This document shows positions 47,802 through 55,504 of a DNA stretch of 64,000 nt, piece after piece (the stretch's first letter is position 1; every line of letters starts with the position of its first letter). The position numbers were made by a program, and so were the translations under genes. The DNA is from an uncultured Candidatus Saccharibacteria bacterium. Its GTDB lineage: Bacteria > Patescibacteriota > Minisyncoccia > Phycocordibacterales > CAIZLB01. Below the pieces are notes generated by a model. The model had not been told where the DNA came from. It did no database searches and worked only from the letters and a program-made list of their open reading frames with translations. Location: assembly GCA_964550955.1 (NCBI GenBank), contig CAZKAF010000001.1, positions 393,920 to 457,919 on the forward strand, read 5' to 3'.

Positions 47802-47892
47802 GCCCTTAAGCAAGAGGCCTGACGCTCTTCCGAATGGCAGTATCCCTGCCCGATGCAAGTGCTCGCAGGCTTTGCCTGACGACTTGCAACCG

Positions 47893-47925
47893 GCGCCGCC
47901 TCGACAAACGAGGCGGCGCTTTTTA
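47893..47925 (+). terminator. Rho-independent terminator
   Basis: Perfect 11-bp stem gcgccgcctcg/cgaggcggcgc with loop acaaa, then TTTTT. Confidence 0.8.
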
Positions 47926-48031: not shown

Positions 48032-48463
48032 CTATTCAGTGATAGCCTTCACCGCATCTTTGGTCACCTTCTTCGCAACCTTGGCAGCGGTTTTGCCGGA
48101 CTTCTTGGCCGCGCCCTTGCCGGCGGAAAGCTCCTTCTTGATAGCTTTCCAATGGCCTTTCATTTCCTTCGCGAGCTTCGCGACTTCGGACACGTCGATG
48201 TTCTTTACGTTCTCGTATTTTCTCATGACCGCGTCGACGGCGTCCTGATACAGCTTCTCGTCGATTTCCTTTATCTTTTCAATTTTCTCAAGCACCTCGC
48301 CCTTGGCCCGAAGCGCCCAGCCTTTTACCTGCTTGACCTTCTTCTGGACATTCTTGTTTCCATAGATGAAATATGCGCCTGCTGCCGCAGCGGCGGCGAT
48401 TCCAAGGATAGCGAGACCGTGTCCTGAAGCTTCATTCTTTTTCTTTGAATTATTTTTTGCCAT
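48032..48463 (-). CDS. Small Lys-rich protein with one TM helix
   Basis: TM helix GLAILGIAAAAAAGAYFIY, then a K/A/E-rich helical region. Confidence 0.35.
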   Translation of the reverse strand: MAKNNSKKKNEASGHGLAILGIAAAAAAGAYFIYGNKNVQKKVKQVKGWALRAKGEVLEKIEKIKEIDEKLYQDAVDAVMRKYENVKNIDVSEVAKLAKEMKGHWKAIKKELSAGKGAAKKSGKTAAKVAKKVTKDAVKAITE

Positions 48464-48649
48464 AAATATTTTAGATTATTATCGAAACTGAATATCTGCC
48501 TGAATAATGGGAGCCAATTAAGTATACCACGTAAGCAGACCTGCAACCTGGCGTACGCATATAGAGACGCCGAAACGGCCGCTTTCTTACATCGCCAGCA
48601 TCTCGAATCGGGCAACTCTCAATCGGCGCGGAACCGGACGGAACCCGTC

Positions 48650-48967
48650 CTATTCGGCATCAGAATGCTTCGAGCTCTTCCTGCCGCCCCTGGCTTTTCT
48701 CATGACCTGTCCCAGCATGAACGAAGCGATCCATTTGCCCAAGCCTGAAACTTTCGTGCCTTCCTCCTTGATTCTTTCTCGAAGCCCGTCGATGTCATCC
48801 GCGACCTTCACGCTCTCGGCCTCGACTCGCTCCATGATGCGCGAAAAGGCGCGAGCGGATTTCGCGAGGTAGTACAGCACGAAAACCAGCAAGATTCCCA
48901 GGAAGACGACGACTATCGTGGTGATGAAAAAGAAGATGTCCGCATGTATTAAATTTGGCGTGTTCAT
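48650..48967 (-). CDS. Small membrane protein
   Basis: N-terminal TM helix and a charged C-terminal half. Confidence 0.35.
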   Translation of the reverse strand: MNTPNLIHADIFFFITTIVVVFLGILLVFVLYYLAKSARAFSRIMERVEAESVKVADDIDGLRERIKEEGTKVSGLGKWIASFMLGQVMRKARGGRKSSKHSDAE

Positions 48968-48992
48968 GGTTTGGGCTGTTTGCTAGGCATTA

Positions 48993-49703
48993 TTAATGGT
49001 TAAATATTCTCCTGAAAAATGACCCCTTGCTGCTTGGCAGCGGGCCGTGCTTGTTAGCTTTCGGATTTCCCTTTTTGGTCATCAGGACGACGAACAGGAT
49101 GGCCAAGGCGACGTATAGCGCCCAATAGCCGATATCGAACATGTTGCCTGCCGGCGGAATGAAGAAGGCGAGAAACAGAAGGCTGAGCACGCCGGGCAAT
49201 TCGAGATTGTGGAGCCTCCTCGTTATGAGCGAGAGCATCATGACCGTCACGGGAGCCAGGACGAAGGGAATGGCCATTATGAAAATGCCCTCCTCGTCGC
49301 GGCTTATGAACTTCATCATCGATTTATAGAACCCCGGAGTCGAGAGCGACAGGAGAAGCGAGCCCAGCGAAAGGACGACGTACCCTATGCCGAAGAAGAA
49401 AAGGAAGCCGAGAATGAAATCTTTCCTCCGCAGCCGGCCGGAAAAGAGCCCGTGCTGGATTTTTCCGATGGCGGAATCGTGATAGCGGTCCAGATGGAGC
49501 ACCTTGCTCAGGGGAGGAAGGAAGCCGTTATGCGCGACGATGTCCTGATGCACTTCCCGGTAGCTTCTCTTGATGGACTCGAATCCTTCCCGTATGTGCT
49601 CCTCGGAGAATCCCGCGCGATGAAGCATGCTCTTTATGTCGTGAGGATGAACCGCGTGCTCAAGCTTCATTTTTATGAAAGAGACTATTCCGTGATTGCT
49701 CAT
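48993..49703 (-). CDS. Membrane protein, DUF805-like
   Basis: The RLRRKDFILGFLFFFGIGYVV region resembles DUF805. Start MSNHGIV follows extended -10 TGGTATTAT. Confidence 0.4.
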   Translation of the reverse strand: MSNHGIVSFIKMKLEHAVHPHDIKSMLHRAGFSEEHIREGFESIKRSYREVHQDIVAHNGFLPPLSKVLHLDRYHDSAIGKIQHGLFSGRLRRKDFILGFLFFFGIGYVVLSLGSLLLSLSTPGFYKSMMKFISRDEEGIFIMAIPFVLAPVTVMMLSLITRRLHNLELPGVLSLLFLAFFIPPAGNMFDIGYWALYVALAILFVVLMTKKGNPKANKHGPLPSSKGSFFRRIFNH

Positions 49704-49723: not shown

Positions 49724-50224
49724 CTAGCTCTCCAACAATGAGGTTATGTACGCGTAATGCTTTTCCGAGACCGGCTGGATGGAAAGACGGCTCCCCTTTT
49801 GGCACACCATCATGTCGGCAAGCTTCGGATCTTTCTTTATTTCCGCCAAGGGCAGAGGACGCTTGAATTTTTTCACGAAAGCGAAATCGACAAGGAACCA
49901 GACGGAATCGTATTCGACGCCATTTTGTTCCGCCTCGGCCTTGCGCTTGGCAGACTTCGGATCATAATGCTCGTCCTTGGGATCAAGGGCCGTCGGATCG
50001 GGATACGGCTTGGTAACGACTTTTGCCAGCCCGTATATGCCATTCGGAAATTCCTTCGAAGCGGAGCTTGAATGGTAAAAGAAAGCCAGGTCTCCGACTT
50101 TCATCTGATTTTTCATGTAATTTCGAGCTTGGAAATTCCTCACGCCGGACCACGGGGTTCTCTTGTCCCTCTTAAGGTCGTCAATCGAGTAGCAATCCCC
50201 TTCGGACTTTATGAGCCAGTGCAT
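49724..50224 (-). CDS. EVE (PUA-like) domain protein
   Basis: MHWLIKSEGDCYSIDDLKRDKRTPWSGVRNFQARNYMKNQMKVGDLAFFYHS matches the EVE-domain N-terminal consensus. Confidence 0.8.
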   Translation of the reverse strand: MHWLIKSEGDCYSIDDLKRDKRTPWSGVRNFQARNYMKNQMKVGDLAFFYHSSSASKEFPNGIYGLAKVVTKPYPDPTALDPKDEHYDPKSAKRKAEAEQNGVEYDSVWFLVDFAFVKKFKRPLPLAEIKKDPKLADMMVCQKGSRLSIQPVSEKHYAYITSLLES

Positions 50225-50230
50225 GCGCTT

Positions 50231-51658
50231 TTATTTTTCAAGGATAACGAAGCTTAGAATCTGGACCGAGTTCGATTCGCCTATCGCGAAGACGACCGCG
50301 GCAGTATAGGAAATGCGACCGTTTGTATAGTCCACAAGCGCCCGATCGACGCCGTCAAACGAGACGTTGGTTACCCTGAAGACAGGATTCCCCTTCTTCG
50401 GCGACAGCGTATTTATGTTCTGAACGATATGCCGAGTGACAGCATCCCTGACTTCTTTCGAGAGAGTGCTTACCGAAGTCGAGGTAGAAGGACGAGCGCC
50501 TGCAGGAAGGCTGGAGCCGTTCGTGGAAGTGCCGGAACTTGTCGGCGGAGTGACAACAGGACGGTTCGCCGCAGGAGTCATGCCCAGATAATAATACGCA
50601 TAGCCTCCTCCCGCGAGCAGGAGAACGAACACTATGCTGATTGCAATCCAAATCTTCTTCATGGCGCCTCCCGACTGATGAACCACGGTCCTCTGGGAAG
50701 CGTTCGGAGTGGTATATGGGGTACTTGGCGGAGCATAAACCGGAGGGGATACAGGCGGGACATTCGGAGAGGATCCGTACGGCGCATTTTGTCCGGACGG
50801 CGCGGCGTATGAGGAATATTGACCAGGACTGCTTGGCCTGGCTGCCGGAGCCGCAGACGACATGCCGCTAAAGCCGACAGGGGCATACCCTGATCCGAAA
50901 GAAGCGCTTGCAGGTTCGCCCGCATAAGGGGTCGCGGAAGGAGCCTGATTTCCTGCCGGAGCAGCGGAAGGAGCAGTGGGCTGCGCCGGCGATGCGGGAT
51001 TTGCATTCATGCTCGTTGGCGCCGGAGAAAATCCGGACGGAGCGGCAGGAGACGGACTTTGCGCGGAAGCGGATGCGATGCTTGAAAAAGATTCCGCGCT
51101 TTGCATCGTACGCACGGTTTCAGACGAAGGCGACACGACGGAAGAATAAGAAACGACCGGAGGCAGGTCAGAAACAGCATTTGAAAAATTCGAGACGGGA
51201 GACGGAGCGGGCGCCGATGCTGGCGCGGCGGACGCTCGGACTGGAGAAAACTCGGGTACGGGCGGCGGTGCAACAGGTGCGCGCATGGGCGAGAATTCGG
51301 GAGCCGGCGAGGACGATGACGGCGAAGCGCTTTTCGGCATTCCGATAAACTGAGGATTTTCGCTTGGGCCAGATGCGCCGGGAACGGCACTTGAGGCATT
51401 CGCAAAGCCGGGATTTGCCGAGGGGTTGGCGGCAGGCATGCTTGCCCCAGAATTATTCATGATGTCGCCGAAGCTGACCGGAGAAGACGTAACGTCCAAT
51501 GATCCGGGCAAGTTCGTCGGCGGCACGGCCTGCGACGGGACAGAGGCGCCCATGCTGTTATTTTGAAAATTTCCGCCGGCAGGATTGCCCGATCCGTACG
51601 CCGGATTGCCGTTGGAAGAATTATTAACTGAACCATCTGGAATAATGTTTTTGTCCAT
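50231..51658 (-). CDS. Bitopic membrane protein: about 330-aa Pro/Ser/Ala-rich disordered N-terminal (predicted cytoplasmic) region, one TM helix, about 125-aa C-terminal extracytoplasmic domain
   Basis: Low-complexity N-terminus, TM helix KKIWIAISIVFVLLLAGGGYAYYYL, globular C-terminus. Start lies 21 nt after the lexA stop on the same strand. Confidence 0.5.
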   Translation of the reverse strand: MDKNIIPDGSVNNSSNGNPAYGSGNPAGGNFQNNSMGASVPSQAVPPTNLPGSLDVTSSPVSFGDIMNNSGASMPAANPSANPGFANASSAVPGASGPSENPQFIGMPKSASPSSSSPAPEFSPMRAPVAPPPVPEFSPVRASAAPASAPAPSPVSNFSNAVSDLPPVVSYSSVVSPSSETVRTMQSAESFSSIASASAQSPSPAAPSGFSPAPTSMNANPASPAQPTAPSAAPAGNQAPSATPYAGEPASASFGSGYAPVGFSGMSSAAPAARPSSPGQYSSYAAPSGQNAPYGSSPNVPPVSPPVYAPPSTPYTTPNASQRTVVHQSGGAMKKIWIAISIVFVLLLAGGGYAYYYLGMTPAANRPVVTPPTSSGTSTNGSSLPAGARPSTSTSVSTLSKEVRDAVTRHIVQNINTLSPKKGNPVFRVTNVSFDGVDRALVDYTNGRISYTAAVVFAIGESNSVQILSFVILEK

Positions 51659-51679
51659 ATGCCTATAAGTATACCACTT

Positions 51680-52255
51680 TTAAATTTTTCGGATAACAGC
51701 CTTAACAACAGCCGCTATCTTCAGGTCATACTCAGGATAGATGTTCTTGAAATTTTTATTTGCAGGCTCGAGATACGGCCGACCCTTCTTGTCCACGCGA
51801 TAATATTTCATGGTCCAGCCGCCATCAACTTCGGCAATGACGATGTCGCCGATTTTGGCCTGATGCCCTTTTTCAACCAAGACCATGTCCCCTTCGGCGA
51901 TATGCGCCTCTATCATTGATTCCCCTTTCACTTCCAGCATGAAGGTAGAGCCCTTAACGTCTCCCAGCAGCATGTCCTCGATGCTTGTCATGTCGAGCAT
52001 TTCTTCCTCCGCAGTTGTCGGCATGCCGGCTTCGACAAGTCCGAGCACAGGTATCTCGCCCGCAAGCCTCTGCGGGATGAGTCGGCCCCGAGAGTCTTTT
52101 TCGAATATGCCATCCTCGACGAGCTTGTTCAGCAATTTATAAACCGCGTTCTTTGACTTGAAGCCGACAAGCTTCATTATTTCGTTATAGCCGGGAACGC
52201 GACGGTTCTGCTTGTAGAAATTAACGATTTTCTGCTTGTAGTCCTGATAGTTCAT
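51680..52255 (-). CDS. lexA: LexA repressor (S24 peptidase)
   Basis: N-terminal winged-helix DNA-binding domain, cleavage region, catalytic Ser (GESMIEA) and Lys (TMKYY) motifs. Confidence 0.85.
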   Translation of the reverse strand: MNYQDYKQKIVNFYKQNRRVPGYNEIMKLVGFKSKNAVYKLLNKLVEDGIFEKDSRGRLIPQRLAGEIPVLGLVEAGMPTTAEEEMLDMTSIEDMLLGDVKGSTFMLEVKGESMIEAHIAEGDMVLVEKGHQAKIGDIVIAEVDGGWTMKYYRVDKKGRPYLEPANKNFKNIYPEYDLKIAAVVKAVIRKI

Positions 52256-52275: not shown

Positions 52276-52473
52276 TTAGAACAGGAACGAAGCCAATGAA
52301 AAGGTTCGGGCGAGCGAAGCTTCGCTTTCAAGCCTTCGAAGCTGCGACACGAGATCCTTGTGCTTCTTCGCTTCCCGATCATAACTTTCCCCTCGCACGA
52401 TCTTGTGATCGATCTTGCTGTTAAGCTTTCCGAGCTCCCTTCTAATCGCGAACATAAGTGTCATTTTTCTCAT
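52276..52473 (-). CDS. Small ORF between the SOS promoter and lexA (65 aa)
   Basis: ORF only. No homology recognised. May be part of a long leader rather than a gene. Confidence 0.2.
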   Translation of the reverse strand: MRKMTLMFAIRRELGKLNSKIDHKIVRGESYDREAKKHKDLVSQLRRLESEASLARTFSLASFLF

Positions 52474-52544: not shown

Positions 52545-52573
52545 AGTATAGGTGAACCATAGTTCACTGTCAA
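52545..52573 (-). promoter_or_regulatory. SOS promoter: TTGACA (-35), 17-nt spacer carrying a LexA box, TATACT (-10)
   Basis: Minus-strand reading: TTGACA GTGAACTATGGTTCACC TATACT. The box at 52552-52567 (GTGAACCATAGTTCAC) is a perfect GAAC-N4-GTTC palindrome of the Cheo-box type. Confidence 0.6.
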
Positions 52574-52631
52574 TAAATTCCCTATCGAAACCTGTGTATA
52601 ACTTTAATGAGCTTGGACGCTTAGGCTGATC

Positions 52632-54113
52632 TTATGTTCGACTTGAGAGAAAGTTTATGATTCTTTCATCTACCTGAACGTCTCTCGGCGACAGCGGCGT
52701 GAGCAGCGTGATGCCTTCCATGCTTCTCACTCGGCTGAGCGCGACATATGCCTGGCCGTGAGCGAACGTGCCCTTGCCGAAATCGATGACGGCCTTGTCA
52801 AACGTCTTGCCTTGGCTCTTGTGAATGGTTACTGCCCAGGCCAGCTTGACCGGAAGCTGAACGTACTTGCCCACGACTTCCGACGAGACGGCATTGCTCA
52901 TGTCGTCGTATTCGTATCGGACCGACTCCCAGCTCTCGCTCTCCACCTCTTCAGTCTTGCCGTTCTCAAGCAATACGTGTATCGAGGTCGAGCCCATCTT
53001 CTTGACGACTCCGATGTCGCCGTTCACCCACCGGCCCACCGCGTCATTCTTTACCATCATGACCTGTGCGCCGGTCTTCAGGACAAGGGCGCTGGGGACC
53101 GGCGTATTTTTCTGATCGAACGTGCCGACGAGAGACCCCTTGTACGTCTTTGACGGAGAGTCTATTTTCTTGAGTTCTTTCTCGTTGATGGAGTCAGCCA
53201 TGGCATTCGTCGTAACCAGATGAATAACCCTGGCAGCAGAATTCCCAACATCGTTCTTGCCGGAAAAGCCGTTCGCGCTTTTGGAGCCCGCCTTGCTTCC
53301 GCCGAACTTGCCGGACCTCGAACCCGCAGATTCTTCCGCATCCAGGCTGATGATAGTTTCAGACCCGTCGCCGTCGAAGACGTCTATGCCGTCGTACTCG
53401 CCGCCGTAGCCCCCCTCGGAATACTGAGGCGCCCCCCGGGCATTTTTTTTGTCGAACGAGCCGTTCGTGCAGCAGATAGAATTTATCTTATATATGTGGT
53501 TCGGCTCTATCTGTCCGATGCGCATCTTGTCCAGGATGCTGATGAATTCGTGATCGCTTTGCCGATATACTTCGGTCAGCTCGGCGACCTGGAACTCGCC
53601 CCTCTGATACGCTTTCGAATCGAAAAAATAAGGACTCTCATACTTGCTCGTGAACAGGTATTGTTCGTGGGGAGAAACGATGGGCGGAAGCTGAAACAGG
53701 TCGCCGATGACCACGATCTGCACCCCTCCGAACGGCTCCCCGGGAGTCGGTCCGTTGAGCCTCAGGAACTTTTCAATGCAATCGAACAGGTCCGCGCGAA
53801 CCATGGATATCTCGTCGATGACAAGAATGTCTATCTTCTTGTACAGCTTCGCGAGCTCCGCATTCGTCGTGACATGCATGTCCTGCTCGCTTACTCCGAT
53901 CTTGAATTTGAAAAAGCTGTGAATGGTCTGCCCCTTCACGTTCAGCGCCGCGATGCCCGTCGGAGCGACGACAGCGACGTTCTTTTTCGTCGTATCCCTG
54001 AAATGGCTGAGAAGGGTCGACTTGCCAGTGCCGGCCCGGCCCGTAATGAACAGATTCTGCTTCGATCCTTCTAAAATTTCAATGACATCTTGAGCTTCCG
54101 CGGATAATTTCAT
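52632..54113 (-). CDS. Pif1/RecD-family 5'-3' DNA helicase
   Basis: Walker A ITGRAGTGKSTLL, VVAPTGIAA, Walker B VIDEISMV, and C-terminal VTIHKSQGKTFD...AYVALSRVRS. A G/S-rich insertion is present. Preceded by TTTTTCTGCTACTATGTAGCC-ATG. Confidence 0.75.
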   Translation of the reverse strand: MKLSAEAQDVIEILEGSKQNLFITGRAGTGKSTLLSHFRDTTKKNVAVVAPTGIAALNVKGQTIHSFFKFKIGVSEQDMHVTTNAELAKLYKKIDILVIDEISMVRADLFDCIEKFLRLNGPTPGEPFGGVQIVVIGDLFQLPPIVSPHEQYLFTSKYESPYFFDSKAYQRGEFQVAELTEVYRQSDHEFISILDKMRIGQIEPNHIYKINSICCTNGSFDKKNARGAPQYSEGGYGGEYDGIDVFDGDGSETIISLDAEESAGSRSGKFGGSKAGSKSANGFSGKNDVGNSAARVIHLVTTNAMADSINEKELKKIDSPSKTYKGSLVGTFDQKNTPVPSALVLKTGAQVMMVKNDAVGRWVNGDIGVVKKMGSTSIHVLLENGKTEEVESESWESVRYEYDDMSNAVSSEVVGKYVQLPVKLAWAVTIHKSQGKTFDKAVIDFGKGTFAHGQAYVALSRVRSMEGITLLTPLSPRDVQVDERIINFLSSRT

Positions 54114-54223: not shown

Positions 54224-55504
54224 TTAAAGACCTTTCCTTTGCCTCTGCATTTCCTTGAATCTTTCCGCGATATTCGCGCTCATGCCCGCGCTTGCGGCAT
54301 TGCTGCCGGCGCTTCCCCTTAATGCAGCCGAGGACTCTTTGGCTCCGTAATTCTTATGAAGCACGTATGCCGCGAAGAGGCTCCAGAGCGCAAGAGCGAA
54401 CGTGAAAAGCGTCATCTTGAGGCCGAAGCTGATGCCGGTTGCCGGAATCTGATTGAGAAATACTCCTGACACCGGCTGACCGACCGTCGGAGCGTACGTC
54501 GTAGGCTGGACATACGTATATGTCGGCTGAACATATTGCGACTGGTACGGATAGTAGTAGTTATGGTCATAATAATTTGACCCGTAGTACGTCGAGCCGT
54601 ATCCATAGTATGAAGTTACCGTCACAAGAAGGCTCGTGCACGCATAGCTGAGGGATGTCGAGCAGATGCTGAACGAGACGGTTCCCGGATTCGTAGCGGT
54701 GACCTGGACGGTATTGTTGTTGACGATGCTCGCGGACGCGATGTTCGCTCCCGGGCTGTTTGAAATGTAATAAGAACCGGATCCGCCGTAAATCGTGACG
54801 GACTGAACCTGGCCCTGCTGAAGCGTGACGGAACTCTGGCTCAAAGTCACCGATGACGAGCCTCCCCACCACGTGCTGTTCACCGTCACGAAAAGATTGG
54901 CGCAGCCGCCGGACGAAGCCTGGGAGCAGACGCTGAAAGTCATCGATCCTTGAGACACGCCGGTTACCGAAATCGCGTTTCCGACAATGTTTGCCGTCGC
55001 GACATTCGAATTAGAATTTGAAGAAATATAATAGCTGCCGCTGCCGCCATATATCTGAGTCGAGGCGGTCTGGTTCGAGTTCACGCTCAGCGAGGACTGG
55101 CCGAAGTAAATTTGCCCGCCCGTCGATCCGCCTGATGACGGCCACGTGGCGCTCATGGATTGGAAGCCGTTCACGACGACGTAGACGATGCTGCCGCTTT
55201 GGATATTGTATTGGCCCGAAGAAACCGTAGTCGAAAATGATCCTGCATAGTTTGTCGTGCCGATAGTGCCCGCATAAACGGCGTTGCCGGAACCGGAAGG
55301 ATAATAATAAAGAAGGACGCTCGCATTCGGATCGGCGTTCACTCCGATATGGACCTGATTGCCGCCGACAGATGACACGGAAAGATGCGCCGTGGCTGCG
55401 GCAGCCTGGCCCGGAACGGCCACGGCCGCCAAGGCGACTGAAAATAACCCTATGAATAAGGATGCGACGAGACCAGCCGTGAAAAGGTTTTTTATGTTCT
55501 TCAT
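54224..55504 (-). CDS. Secreted surface protein with tandem roughly 90-aa Ig-like repeats and a C-terminal (I)PATG sorting-signal-like anchor (paralog of 34674-35999 at the C-terminus)
   Basis: Signal peptide, two repeats beginning IYGGSGSYYIS, Y-rich region, then PVSGVFLNQIPATGISFGLKMTLF...AAYVL, a basic stop-transfer and a 44-aa tail. Confidence 0.6.
   Translation of the reverse strand: MKNIKNLFTAGLVASLFIGLFSVALAAVAVPGQAAAATAHLSVSSVGGNQVHIGVNADPNASVLLYYYPSGSGNAVYAGTIGTTNYAGSFSTTVSSGQYNIQSGSIVYVVVNGFQSMSATWPSSGGSTGGQIYFGQSSLSVNSNQTASTQIYGGSGSYYISSNSNSNVATANIVGNAISVTGVSQGSMTFSVCSQASSGGCANLFVTVNSTWWGGSSSVTLSQSSVTLQQGQVQSVTIYGGSGSYYISNSPGANIASASIVNNNTVQVTATNPGTVSFSICSTSLSYACTSLLVTVTSYYGYGSTYYGSNYYDHNYYYPYQSQYVQPTYTYVQPTTYAPTVGQPVSGVFLNQIPATGISFGLKMTLFTFALALWSLFAAYVLHKNYGAKESSAALRGSAGSNAASAGMSANIAERFKEMQRQRKGL

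What the first reader, a model, noticed from the sequence alone, without database searches (positions are those of the whole stretch)
50231..51658. Large Pro/Ser/Ala-rich bitopic membrane protein cotranscribed directly downstream of lexA; candidate SOS effector
Its start is 21 nt after the lexA stop on the same strand with no intervening terminator, so it is predicted to be SOS-controlled. Architecture: about 330-aa disordered P/S/A-rich cytoplasmic region, one TM helix, about 125-aa extracytoplasmic globular domain. This recalls divisome-linker proteins (ZipA/FtsN-like linkers) and SOS cell-division inhibitors (YneA/SulA analogues are often membrane proteins encoded beside lexA). No known inhibitor family matches, so it could be a lineage-specific SOS division checkpoint factor.
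Basis: inference. Interest (0 to 1): 0.6.

Follow-up and report, generated by a model that had tools for sequence, protein, structure and literature searches.

The report
Fast-evolving membrane protein beside lexA
The gene after lexA in this candidate-phyla-radiation bacterium encodes a real, unnamed single-pass membrane protein with a long disordered inner tail, but it has its own promoter, so its proposed role as a DNA-damage-induced division brake is plausible and unproven.

Summary
ORF 50231-51658 (-) encodes 475 aa and starts 21 nt after a bona fide lexA, with no terminator between them.

Its parts are a 330-aa S/P/A-rich disordered cytoplasmic region, one TM helix, a 45-aa S/T/P linker and a 76-aa C-terminal domain. 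AlphaFold2 models that domain confidently as a cystatin/NTF2-like fold (one helix, four strands). No Pfam, NCBIfam, PADLOC or PDB sequence family matches.

It belongs to a small Patescibacteria (Paceibacteria) family of 57 representatives among 1.84 billion. Wherever upstream sequence exists, the long, disordered-tail forms sit between lexA and an EVE-domain gene.

A conserved LexA operator (GGTGAAC-N4-GTTCACC, between -35 and -10) exists. It lies 0.9 kb upstream, ahead of a conserved 65-aa ORF plus lexA.

The 21-nt spacer holds a conserved extended -10 promoter (TGGTATACT, 9 nt before the ATG). It is present in 13 of 13 orthologous loci and has no LexA box. Short homologues in two genomes lie upstream of the LexA box, and distant homologues are not near lexA.

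Verdict: a new membrane-protein family, probably expressed constitutively and at most boosted by SOS read-through. A YneA/ChiZ/SosA-like division-checkpoint role is an analogy, not a finding.

The parts
50231..51658 (-). Target CDS, 475 aa: bitopic membrane protein (N-in disordered tail, TM, linker, C-out domain)
   Evidence: ORF list. The same gene was called on an independent assembly of the same organism. 57 family representatives.
50675..51658 (-). Cytoplasmic intrinsically disordered region, aa 1-328, S/P/A-rich and almost uncharged
   Evidence: AlphaFold2 pLDDT below 50. Composition. Positive-inside count.
51335..51358 (-). Conserved short linear motif NPQFIGMP (aa 101-108); family pattern [ND]P.F.GM[PNS]
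   Evidence: An F.GM-type motif is present in the cytoplasmic tail of 30 of 32 long forms, although the tails otherwise cannot be aligned.
50588..50659 (-). Transmembrane helix (aa 334-357, KKIWIAISIVFVLLLAGGGYAYYY); conserved GGG.YYWY at the outer end
   Evidence: AlphaFold2 helix 329-357. Hydropathy and family alignment.
50495..50515 (-). Extracytoplasmic linker motif SSLPAGA (aa 382-388); family pattern S.FP.[GA]V, 25-45 aa after the TM
   Evidence: Present in about 27 of 32 long forms.
50234..50461 (-). C-terminal 76-aa domain (aa 400-475): one helix packed on four antiparallel strands, cystatin/NTF2-like, ending SF.ILEK at the C-terminus
51668..51676 (-). Extended -10 promoter element TGGTATACT in the lexA-target spacer, 9 nt before the ATG (leaderless-type geometry); no LexA box
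   Evidence: Conserved in 13/13 orthologous loci at 7-10 nt from the true ATG. Genome-wide enrichment, 12/57 genes against 0.25 expected.
51680..52255 (-). lexA (191 aa)
   Evidence: Pfam S24. NCBIfam TIGR00498 above its cut-off. 316 relatives in Patescibacteria genomes.
52276..52473 (-). Conserved 65-aa ORF, first gene of the LexA-controlled unit
   Evidence: Found upstream of lexA in 68 of 81 loci. Alignment of 71 copies. 49 clusters, all 'hypothetical'.
52545..52573 (-). Sigma-70 promoter TTGACA-17-TATACT (11/12), with the LexA operator in its spacer
   Evidence: Promoter scan. The same layout occurs in 64 loci.
52550..52569 (.). LexA operator, core GAAC-N4-GTTC (52554-52565), family consensus AGGTGAAC-N4-GTTCACCT
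   Evidence: PWM score 28.2, next best in the 64 kb is -0.7. Conserved in 64 related loci. One box per locus.
52593..52601 (-). DnaA-box-like motif TTATACACA just upstream of the -35
   Evidence: TTATCCACA-type motif in 71 of 78 LexA-box promoters against 0.54 expected.
49724..50224 (-). EVE-domain gene, starts 6 nt after the target's stop codon (probably translationally coupled)
   Evidence: Pfam EVE 1.7e-49. It follows lexA directly in relatives that lack the target at this position.
47892..47920 (.). First strong terminator hairpin downstream of the gene string (12-bp stem, 10 G-C pairs)
   Evidence: Terminator scan. Apart from one weak 5-bp match inside the target ORF, no minus-strand terminator-like site lies between 52573 and 48032.

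Best explanation
The gene encodes a lineage-restricted bitopic membrane adaptor. A 76-aa cystatin-like domain sits outside the cell on an S/T/P stalk. A long, uncharged, flexible tail hangs into the cytoplasm and presents one conserved short linear motif (NPxFxGMP) to an unknown cytoplasmic partner.

It is transcribed mainly from its own extended -10, leaderless-type promoter in the 21-nt spacer after lexA. Because no terminator follows lexA, it also receives read-through transcripts from the only LexA-repressed promoter, 0.9 kb upstream.

The protein would therefore always be present and be raised, not switched on, by DNA damage. Its most plausible job is to couple an event at the cell envelope or septum to a cytoplasmic machine, in the manner of the lexA-adjacent bitopic proteins of monoderm bacteria.

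Shown: the gene, its topology, its fold class, its family, its conserved motifs, its conserved position, the LexA operator, the private promoter motif and the absence of a terminator.

Inferred: promoter activity, read-through, the partner, and any effect on division.
For: - Real gene and family.
- Topology: and the signal-anchored homologues.
- Domain model at pLDDT 89.8 and fold class.
- Conserved motifs inside otherwise unalignable low-complexity sequence, which argues for a binding function.
- Private promoter: TGnTAnnnT at 7-10 nt before the ATG in 13/13 loci regardless of spacer length. The same geometry occurs at 12/57 genes of the window against 0.25 expected. It occurs at only 8/88 lexA genes.
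- LexA operator: one per locus, embedded between -35 and -10, conserved in 64 loci.
- No terminator between the LexA-box promoter and the target.
- Conserved position after lexA in every long-form context that includes upstream sequence.
- Precedent that lexA-adjacent single-pass proteins with extracellular C-termini are SOS division inhibitors with little mutual homology: PMC6851548, read.
Against: - No expression data, so both the promoter and the read-through are sequence inferences.
- The private promoter has no LexA box. Known inhibitors (YneA, SosA, ChiZ) are LexA-controlled (PMC6851548).
- Short homologues in L008 and L010 lie outside the LexA-controlled unit.
- The wider domain family is extracellular, often tandemly repeated and unlinked to lexA. 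This fits a generic surface module.
- All lexA-linked cases share one syntenic block, so they amount to one evolutionary event.
- The more widely conserved lexA partner is the 65-aa ORF, not this gene.
Confidence: 0.45

Rival explanations
1. This is the first reader's reading: a dedicated SOS effector. The gene is expressed essentially as part of the lexA transcript, is derepressed after DNA damage, and blocks septation as a lineage-specific analogue of YneA, ChiZ, SosA or DivS.
For: - The gene is adjacent to lexA with no terminator.
- There is a genuine conserved LexA operator upstream.
- It has a single TM with an extracellular C-terminal domain and evolves fast. The C-domain is 33-57% identical where LexA is 70-88% identical. 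Both features are typical of that class (PMC6851548).
- The position is conserved in all long-form contexts.
Against: - A conserved private promoter without a LexA box lies in the spacer.
- The short form in L008 and L010 lies upstream of the operator.
- There is no LysM domain and no homology to any inhibitor.
- It is 3-6 times larger than known inhibitors.
- A potent inhibitor made from an unrepressed promoter would be harmful.
- The 65-aa ORF is the older and more widespread lexA partner.
Confidence: 0.2
2. The gene is a housekeeping cell-envelope or cell-surface protein with no functional tie to SOS. It landed between lexA and the EVE gene in one ancestor, brought its own promoter, and has stayed there because these small genomes keep local gene order.
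For: - It has its own promoter.
- In outgroups and in L008/L010, EVE follows lexA directly, so the target is an insertion.
- The whole block up to DUF805, DUF948 and the YtxH-like gene is syntenic.
- Domain relatives are plain secreted or anchored proteins, sometimes in tandem arrays or with Cys-rich modules, and are not near lexA.
- Fast evolution suits a surface-exposed protein.
Against: - Two different arrangements, upstream of the small ORF in L008/L010 and downstream of lexA elsewhere, both keep it next to the small ORF-lexA pair.
- Gain of the cytoplasmic tail coincides with the position inside the lexA gene string.
- Read-through from the LexA promoter is hard to avoid without a terminator.
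- The EVE gene, coupled to lexA in outgroups, is now coupled to the target by a 6-nt gap. SOS transcripts that reach EVE must therefore cross the target.
Confidence: 0.3
3. The protein modulates the SOS switch itself. A membrane-tethered tail would bind LexA, RecA or the 65-aa protein and tune repression, for example by sequestration at the membrane.
For: The only support is the persistent adjacency to the small ORF-lexA pair in two arrangements, plus a conserved cytoplasmic peptide motif with no assigned partner.
Against: - I recall no precedent for LexA.
- Most Paceibacteria with the same lexA operon lack the protein nearby.
- The extracellular domain would be unexplained.
Confidence: 0.05

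Closest known systems
YneA (Bacillus, Listeria) and ChiZ/Rv2719c (Mycobacterium): SOS-induced bitopic division inhibitors encoded beside lexA
   Same: - Encoded next to lexA.
- Single TM with an extracytoplasmic C-terminal domain.
- Poorly conserved in sequence (PMC6851548).
- ChiZ also has a disordered cytoplasmic N-terminus. That point comes from my own knowledge and was not checked here.
   Different: - The known genes are divergently transcribed and LexA-controlled (PMC6851548). Here the gene is co-directional, its own promoter lacks a box, and the only box is 0.9 kb upstream.
- Their outer domain is LysM. Here it is a cystatin-like helix plus four strands.
- The tail here is 117-335 aa.
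- No functional test exists.
SosA (Staphylococcus) and DivS (Corynebacterium): lexA-adjacent bitopic inhibitors without LysM
   Same: - lexA-adjacent.
- Single TM with an extracellular C-terminus and no LysM.
- Lineage-specific sequence (PMC6851548).
   Different: - SosA is 77 aa with essentially no cytoplasmic part and is LexA-controlled.
- The target is 475 aa with a long cytoplasmic tail and its own unrepressed promoter.
lexA-dinF (E. coli) and lexA-sulA (Pseudomonas) operons
   Same: A gene sits directly downstream of lexA on the same strand and is reached by the autoregulated lexA promoter. This comes from my own knowledge and was not checked in the literature here.
   Different: - DinF is a polytopic MATE transporter and SulA is a cytoplasmic FtsZ binder.
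- Neither resembles the target, and no Pfam match was found.
Cystatin / NTF2-like superfold, including VirB8-type bitopic proteins
   Same: - VirB8 is also a bitopic N-in/C-out protein.
   Different: - Sequence identity is at most 16%.
- Foldseek found nothing significant (best E = 0.23).
- The domain has one helix and four strands, not the full NTF2 cone.
- There is no VirB8 or cystatin Pfam match and no type IV secretion genes nearby.
ZipA / FtsN-type divisome linkers
   Same: Membrane anchor plus a long low-complexity tether plus a small globular domain.
   Different: - In ZipA the tether and the domain are both cytoplasmic. In FtsN the tether and the SPOR domain are periplasmic. Both statements come from my own knowledge.
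- Here the tether is cytoplasmic and the domain is outside.
- There is no ZipA_C or SPOR match.

Membership tests
LysM-type SOS division inhibitors (YneA/ChiZ) | C-terminal LysM peptidoglycan-binding domain | tested here: not met
   No Pfam hit at E<=0.01 for the protein, and none at E<=1 across 56 domain homologues. The predicted fold is a helix plus four strands, cystatin-like.
LysM-type SOS division inhibitors (YneA/ChiZ) | Single TM with extracytoplasmic C-terminus | tested here: met
   AlphaFold2 helix 329-357. K+R are 67 against 23 across 32 members. Signal-anchored homologues exist.
LysM-type SOS division inhibitors (YneA/ChiZ) | Promoter directly repressed by LexA (operator at the gene's own promoter) | tested here: not met
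   The only operator in 64 kb is at 52550-52569, 0.9 kb upstream. There is one box per locus in 12 of 14 related loci, and the other two do not reach the promoter region. The spacer promoter has no box. Read-through control remains possible.
LysM-type SOS division inhibitors (YneA/ChiZ) | Overproduction blocks cell division | not testable with these tools
SulA | Cytoplasmic SulA domain that binds FtsZ | tested here: not met
   No Pfam or NCBIfam match. The protein is membrane-bound.
ZipA / FtsN divisome linkers | ZipA C-terminal FtsZ-binding domain or SPOR domain | tested here: not met
   [not shown]
VirB8 / NTF2-like | Full NTF2 cone (three helices plus a curved sheet) and the VirB8 sequence family | tested here: not met
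   [not shown]
Cystatin-like fold (structural class only) | One helix packed across a four-stranded antiparallel sheet | tested here: met
   [not shown]
LexA (the neighbouring gene) | S24 autopeptidase with Ala-Gly site and Ser/Lys dyad, N-terminal winged-helix DNA-binding domain, autoregulatory operator | tested here: met
   TIGR00498 at 111.9 against 110.95. S24 at 2.3e-22. VEAGMP, GESM and TMKYY are read in the sequence. The operator is conserved in 64 loci.
Anti-phage defence systems (PADLOC) | Match to a defence-system protein model | tested here: not met
   No hit for the target, the small ORF or EVE. Only the upstream PIF1-like helicase gives generic helicase hits.

The most novel reading that the evidence does not exclude
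A Patescibacteria-specific DNA-damage checkpoint module in which the conserved 65-aa helical protein, LexA and this tail-bearing bitopic protein work together. After damage, read-through raises the membrane protein. Its NPxFxGMP motif captures a cytoplasmic division or replication factor such as FtsZ, FtsA or the sliding clamp. Its outer cystatin-like domain engages the septal wall machinery, pausing division. This would be a new structural solution, with an outer cystatin-like domain instead of LysM and a disordered tail bearing a linear motif, in a phylum where cell-cycle control is essentially unknown.
Probability: 0.15. Interest if true: 0.65.

Novelty: new variant of a known kind. Interest (0 to 1): 0.4.

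Why it matters
Patescibacteria (the candidate phyla radiation) make up a large share of bacterial diversity. They are almost entirely uncultured, and nothing is known about how they couple DNA damage to division.

If this protein were the checkpoint effector, it would extend the rule 'the bitopic gene beside lexA is the division brake' from Firmicutes and Actinobacteria to this phylum. It would also add a new domain solution and a peptide motif that could be used to fish for the target.

Even if it is not, the work gives four concrete and testable features:
- an unnamed extracytoplasmic domain family;
- a conserved small ORF-lexA operon whose promoter combines a LexA operator with a DnaA-box-like site;
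- evidence that this organism mostly uses extended -10, leaderless-type promoters, which changes how operons should be read in such genomes;
- a caution that 'short gap, no terminator' does not imply co-regulation there.

Tried and rejected
- Word-indexed homologue search with the C-terminal 154 aa found nothing. With the domain profile it found only 2 proteins. The exhaustive phmmer search was needed.
- A scan of JGI metagenome contigs with a domain alignment failed first for lack of a conserved stretch and then confirmed no relative.
- The AFDB50 fold library was not available. Foldseek against PDB gave no significant match.
- Profile search against PDB sequences gave only chance-level hits. 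The BamA POTRA-like 'FyVxxIxFxG' strings had E about 0.4. POTRA is rejected because the predicted topology is helix-strand-strand-strand-strand.
- Pfam, NCBIfam and PADLOC gave nothing for the target.
- The simple GAAC-N4-GTTC count in the window was not significant on its own: 3 matches, and 17 of 100 shuffles did as well. It became decisive only with the extended matrix and the cross-genome comparison.
- The weak terminator-like hairpin inside the ORF at 51170-51154 is within chance expectation and was discarded.
- The weak promoter-like site inside lexA at 51828-51800 (9/12) was not pursued.
- P0055 looked like a second 'short form'. Its reading frame is open to the contig edge, so it is probably a truncated call.
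- The one paper on the Patescibacteria SOS network (Sanchez-Osuna, Barbe and Erill 2017, cited) is not held, so I could not check whether it lists this gene.
- No paper in the library links EVE domains with LexA.
Full report
**1. What is there**

The window carries an ATG-initiated ORF of 475 codons on the minus strand at 50231-51658.

Immediately upstream, 21 nt away on the same strand, lies a 191-aa protein at 51680-52255.
- It matches Peptidase_S24 at 2.3e-22 and weakly matches the LexA DNA-binding domain.
- It passes NCBI's lexA equivalog model TIGR00498, 111.9 bits against a cut-off of 110.95.
- It shows the Ala-Gly cleavage site (VEAGMP) and the Ser (GESM) and Lys (TMKYY) of the catalytic dyad in its sequence.

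The terminator scan finds nothing in or near the 21-nt gap. The junction RNA folds no better than shuffles, z = -1.1.

**2. The protein**

Single-sequence AlphaFold2 leaves residues 1-328 without structure (pLDDT below 50). It places a helix at 329-357 and gives a helix plus four strands at 401-474.

The N-terminal 333 residues are S (69), P (60) and A (53), with only 18 charged residues.

In 32 family members the 15 residues before the TM carry 67 K+R in total, against 23 after it. Relatives that lack the tail have the domain directly behind an N-terminal signal anchor. The topology is therefore tail inside, domain outside.

The outer part is not a 125-aa globule. It is a 45-aa S/T/P stalk followed by a 76-aa domain.

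With a 56-sequence alignment the domain is modelled at pLDDT 89.8 as one helix packed on four antiparallel strands.
- Foldseek gives nothing significant.
- Pfam, NCBIfam, PADLOC and a profile search of PDB sequences give no family.

**3. The family**

The word-indexed search found nothing. The only other contig with the identical protein is from the same organism.

The exhaustive search of 1.84 billion representatives found 57 proteins at E<=1e-3, of which 22 at E<=1e-10. They fall into three architectures.
- (a) About 30 long forms like the target, with a disordered tail of 117-335 aa, a TM, a stalk and the domain.
- (b) Short forms of about 146 aa, with only a TM, a short stalk and the domain.
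- (c) More distant secreted or anchored proteins, with the domain single or in two to four tandem copies ('YEDGH' type), sometimes with other extracellular modules.

Within the long forms the tails cannot be aligned, but four elements are conserved.
- A cytoplasmic motif [ND]P.F.GM[PNS], with an F.GM-type match in 30 of 32. In the window it is NPQFIGMP, aa 101-108.
- A TM that ends GGG.YYWY.
- An outer motif S.FP.[GA]V, 25-45 residues after the TM, in about 27 of 32.
- The C-terminal SF.ILEK.

Conserved islands in low-complexity sequence argue that the tail is translated and that the motif is a binding site.

**4. The SOS operator is real but distant**

The best sigma-70 promoter of the region is TTGACA-17-TATACT (11 of 12) at 52573-52545, upstream of a 65-aa ORF that precedes lexA. 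It has the palindrome GTGAAC-TATG-GTTCAC in its spacer.

I fetched lexA loci from 80 Patescibacteria genomes. The same layout, TTGACA-GGT-GAAC-N4-GTTC-ACC-TATA(C/A)T, is present in 64 loci, including extra loci fetched later.

A matrix built from the other genomes scores 28.2 at 52550-52569. The next best site in the 64 kb scores -0.7.

This is a Firmicutes-type LexA box placed between -35 and -10, so the small ORF-lexA unit is almost certainly autoregulated. A comparative study of the Patescibacteria SOS network exists (cited) but could not be read.

**5. Synteny, tested from both sides**

Starting from lexA: the domain is found only in the closest clade.
- Seven of the eight genomes whose LexA is 70-88% identical to the window's and whose small ORF-lexA pair is not preceded by a short form (L002-L007, L009) have a long form 19-60 nt after lexA, by the raw ORF calls.
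- Two (L008, L010) have the short form upstream of the small ORF.
- 71 more distant lexA loci have no copy within 6 kb.

Starting from the protein: six diverged long-form representatives (P0010, P0028, P0041, P0026, P0003, P0024) all sit directly after an S24/LexA gene and before an EVE gene. A seventh contig (P0046) begins at the gene and continues with EVE-DUF805.

Two distant 'YEDGH' relatives with usable contigs are not near lexA.

In outgroups, and in L008 and L010, the EVE gene follows lexA directly. The long form is therefore an insertion between lexA and EVE in one subclade. The many linked cases go back to one event within a conserved block: small ORF, lexA, X, EVE, DUF805, DUF948-like, YtxH-like.

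**6. The spacer is a promoter**

I aligned the lexA-target spacers of 13 loci. All of them have an extended -10 element: TGGTATACT, TGATATACT or TG.TACAAT. It lies 7-10 nt, mostly 9, before the family's true ATG.
- The spacer length varies from 19 to 81 nt (start codons re-set).
- The motif keeps register with the ATG, not with lexA.

This geometry is the norm in this genome. Twelve of 57 genes in the window have TGnTAnnnT ending 6-10 nt before their ATG, against 0.25 expected from the motif's density.

It is not a feature of lexA itself, where it occurs in 8 of 88 loci.

No LexA box overlaps it, and each locus that reaches the promoter region has exactly one box, about 1 kb upstream.

The short forms in L008 and L010 also have a TATAAT 6 nt before their ATG. 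They lie upstream of the LexA box, so that box cannot repress them.

The target therefore very probably has its own, unrepressed, leaderless-type promoter. SOS control can come only through read-through, which the missing terminator permits.

The first strong terminator after the LexA-box promoter on this strand is at 47892-47920. The EVE gene starts 6 nt after the target's stop codon, so transcripts that serve EVE must cross the target.

**7. Interpretation**

The architecture and position match the class of lexA-adjacent, single-pass, C-out proteins that act as SOS division inhibitors in monoderm bacteria. These are YneA, ChiZ, SosA and DivS, and they share little sequence with each other (PMC6851548).

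Against membership:
- there is no LysM domain;
- the gene's own promoter has no operator;
- the protein is much larger;
- short forms lie outside the SOS unit;
- the domain family looks like a general extracellular module.

I therefore favour a constitutively made membrane adaptor that SOS read-through can raise (0.45).
- A housekeeping envelope protein with only historical linkage comes next (0.30).
- A dedicated SOS division inhibitor follows (0.20).
- An SOS-switch modulator is least likely (0.05).

What the tail motif binds, and what the outer domain binds, are both unknown.

**8. Novelty and score**

The protein family and its domain are unnamed in the libraries searched, and I found no paper on it. 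As a kind it is a variant of the known 'bitopic gene beside lexA' theme with unproven function.

Interest is moderate at 0.4. The finding is real and gives testable handles. Its headline claim of SOS control is weakened by the private promoter, and no function can be shown.

The by-products may be of equal or greater interest. They are the conserved small ORF-lexA operon, the DnaA-box-like site, the leaderless-type promoters, and the link between the SOS unit and the EVE gene.

Noticed in passing
window 52276-52473 (-); L002-L081 just upstream of lexA: A 65-aa ORF is the first gene of the LexA-controlled unit. It precedes lexA in 68 of 81 loci, far more widely than the target. Its consensus is MSK..IR.E...LN..ID.KIIKG.SY.REA.RHK.L..QL.RL...SF.F, which looks like a basic helix with a short hydrophobic C-terminus. 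All database copies are 'hypothetical' with no Pfam family. It is at least as good a candidate SOS effector as the target.
   Followed up: partly
window 52593-52601 (-); the same position in 71 of 78 related LexA-box promoters: A DnaA-box-like motif (TTATCCACA; TTATACACA in the window) lies 13-15 or 24-25 nt upstream of the LexA operator, just outside the -35. The count is 71 of 78 against 0.54 expected. This suggests that the lexA operon also responds to DnaA or replication status.
   Followed up: partly
window, whole; examples at 1681, 5382, 7023, 9573, 17693, 38577, 39461, 52632: Twelve of 57 genes have an extended -10 motif TGnTAnnnT ending 6-10 nt before the ATG, against 0.25 expected. 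Almost no gene shows a Shine-Dalgarno sequence. This organism seems to rely on leaderless or near-leaderless mRNAs, so short intergenic gaps do not imply co-transcription.
   Followed up: partly
window 49724-50224 (-); L008 6578-7081, L010 6575-7093, L011, L012: An EVE (PUA-like) domain gene is the gene coupled to lexA in relatives that lack the inserted target at this position, with gaps of 1-4 nt in L008 and L010. In the window it follows the target by 6 nt. No paper in the library links EVE domains with LexA.
   Followed up: partly
L008 5184-5624; L010 5154-5594: These are short 146-aa homologues of the target, with a TM plus the domain and no disordered tail. They sit upstream of the small ORF-lexA pair, right after an NRAMP-like transporter-sized gene, and have their own TATAAT 6 nt before the ATG. 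Gain of the tail coincides with the move to the other side of lexA.
   Followed up: partly
P0002, P0014, P0021, P0023, P0035, P0044, P0045, P0049, P0056: The same 76-aa domain occurs in two to four tandem copies. It also occurs next to a Cys-rich C-terminal module (C.DMCGDG.CQE..C.G.GCPC) in other secreted proteins returned by the same search (source organisms not named). This points to an unnamed extracellular domain family.
   Followed up: no
window 52632-54113 (-): A PIF1-like helicase (Pfam PIF1 3.3e-33) lies immediately upstream of the LexA-box promoter and has its own extended -10 motif. A PIF1 helicase is also near lexA in L084.
   Followed up: no
window 48032-49703 (-): The gene string continues with DUF805, a DUF948-like protein and a YtxH-like 143-aa protein, all small membrane proteins. 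It is conserved in the same order in relatives. A strong two-way terminator hairpin lies at 47892-47920.
   Followed up: no
window 54224-55504 (-): A 426-aa protein has a signal peptide, Ser/Gly/Tyr-rich repeats with a faint Ig-like match, and a C-terminal TM. It is probably a surface protein.
   Followed up: no
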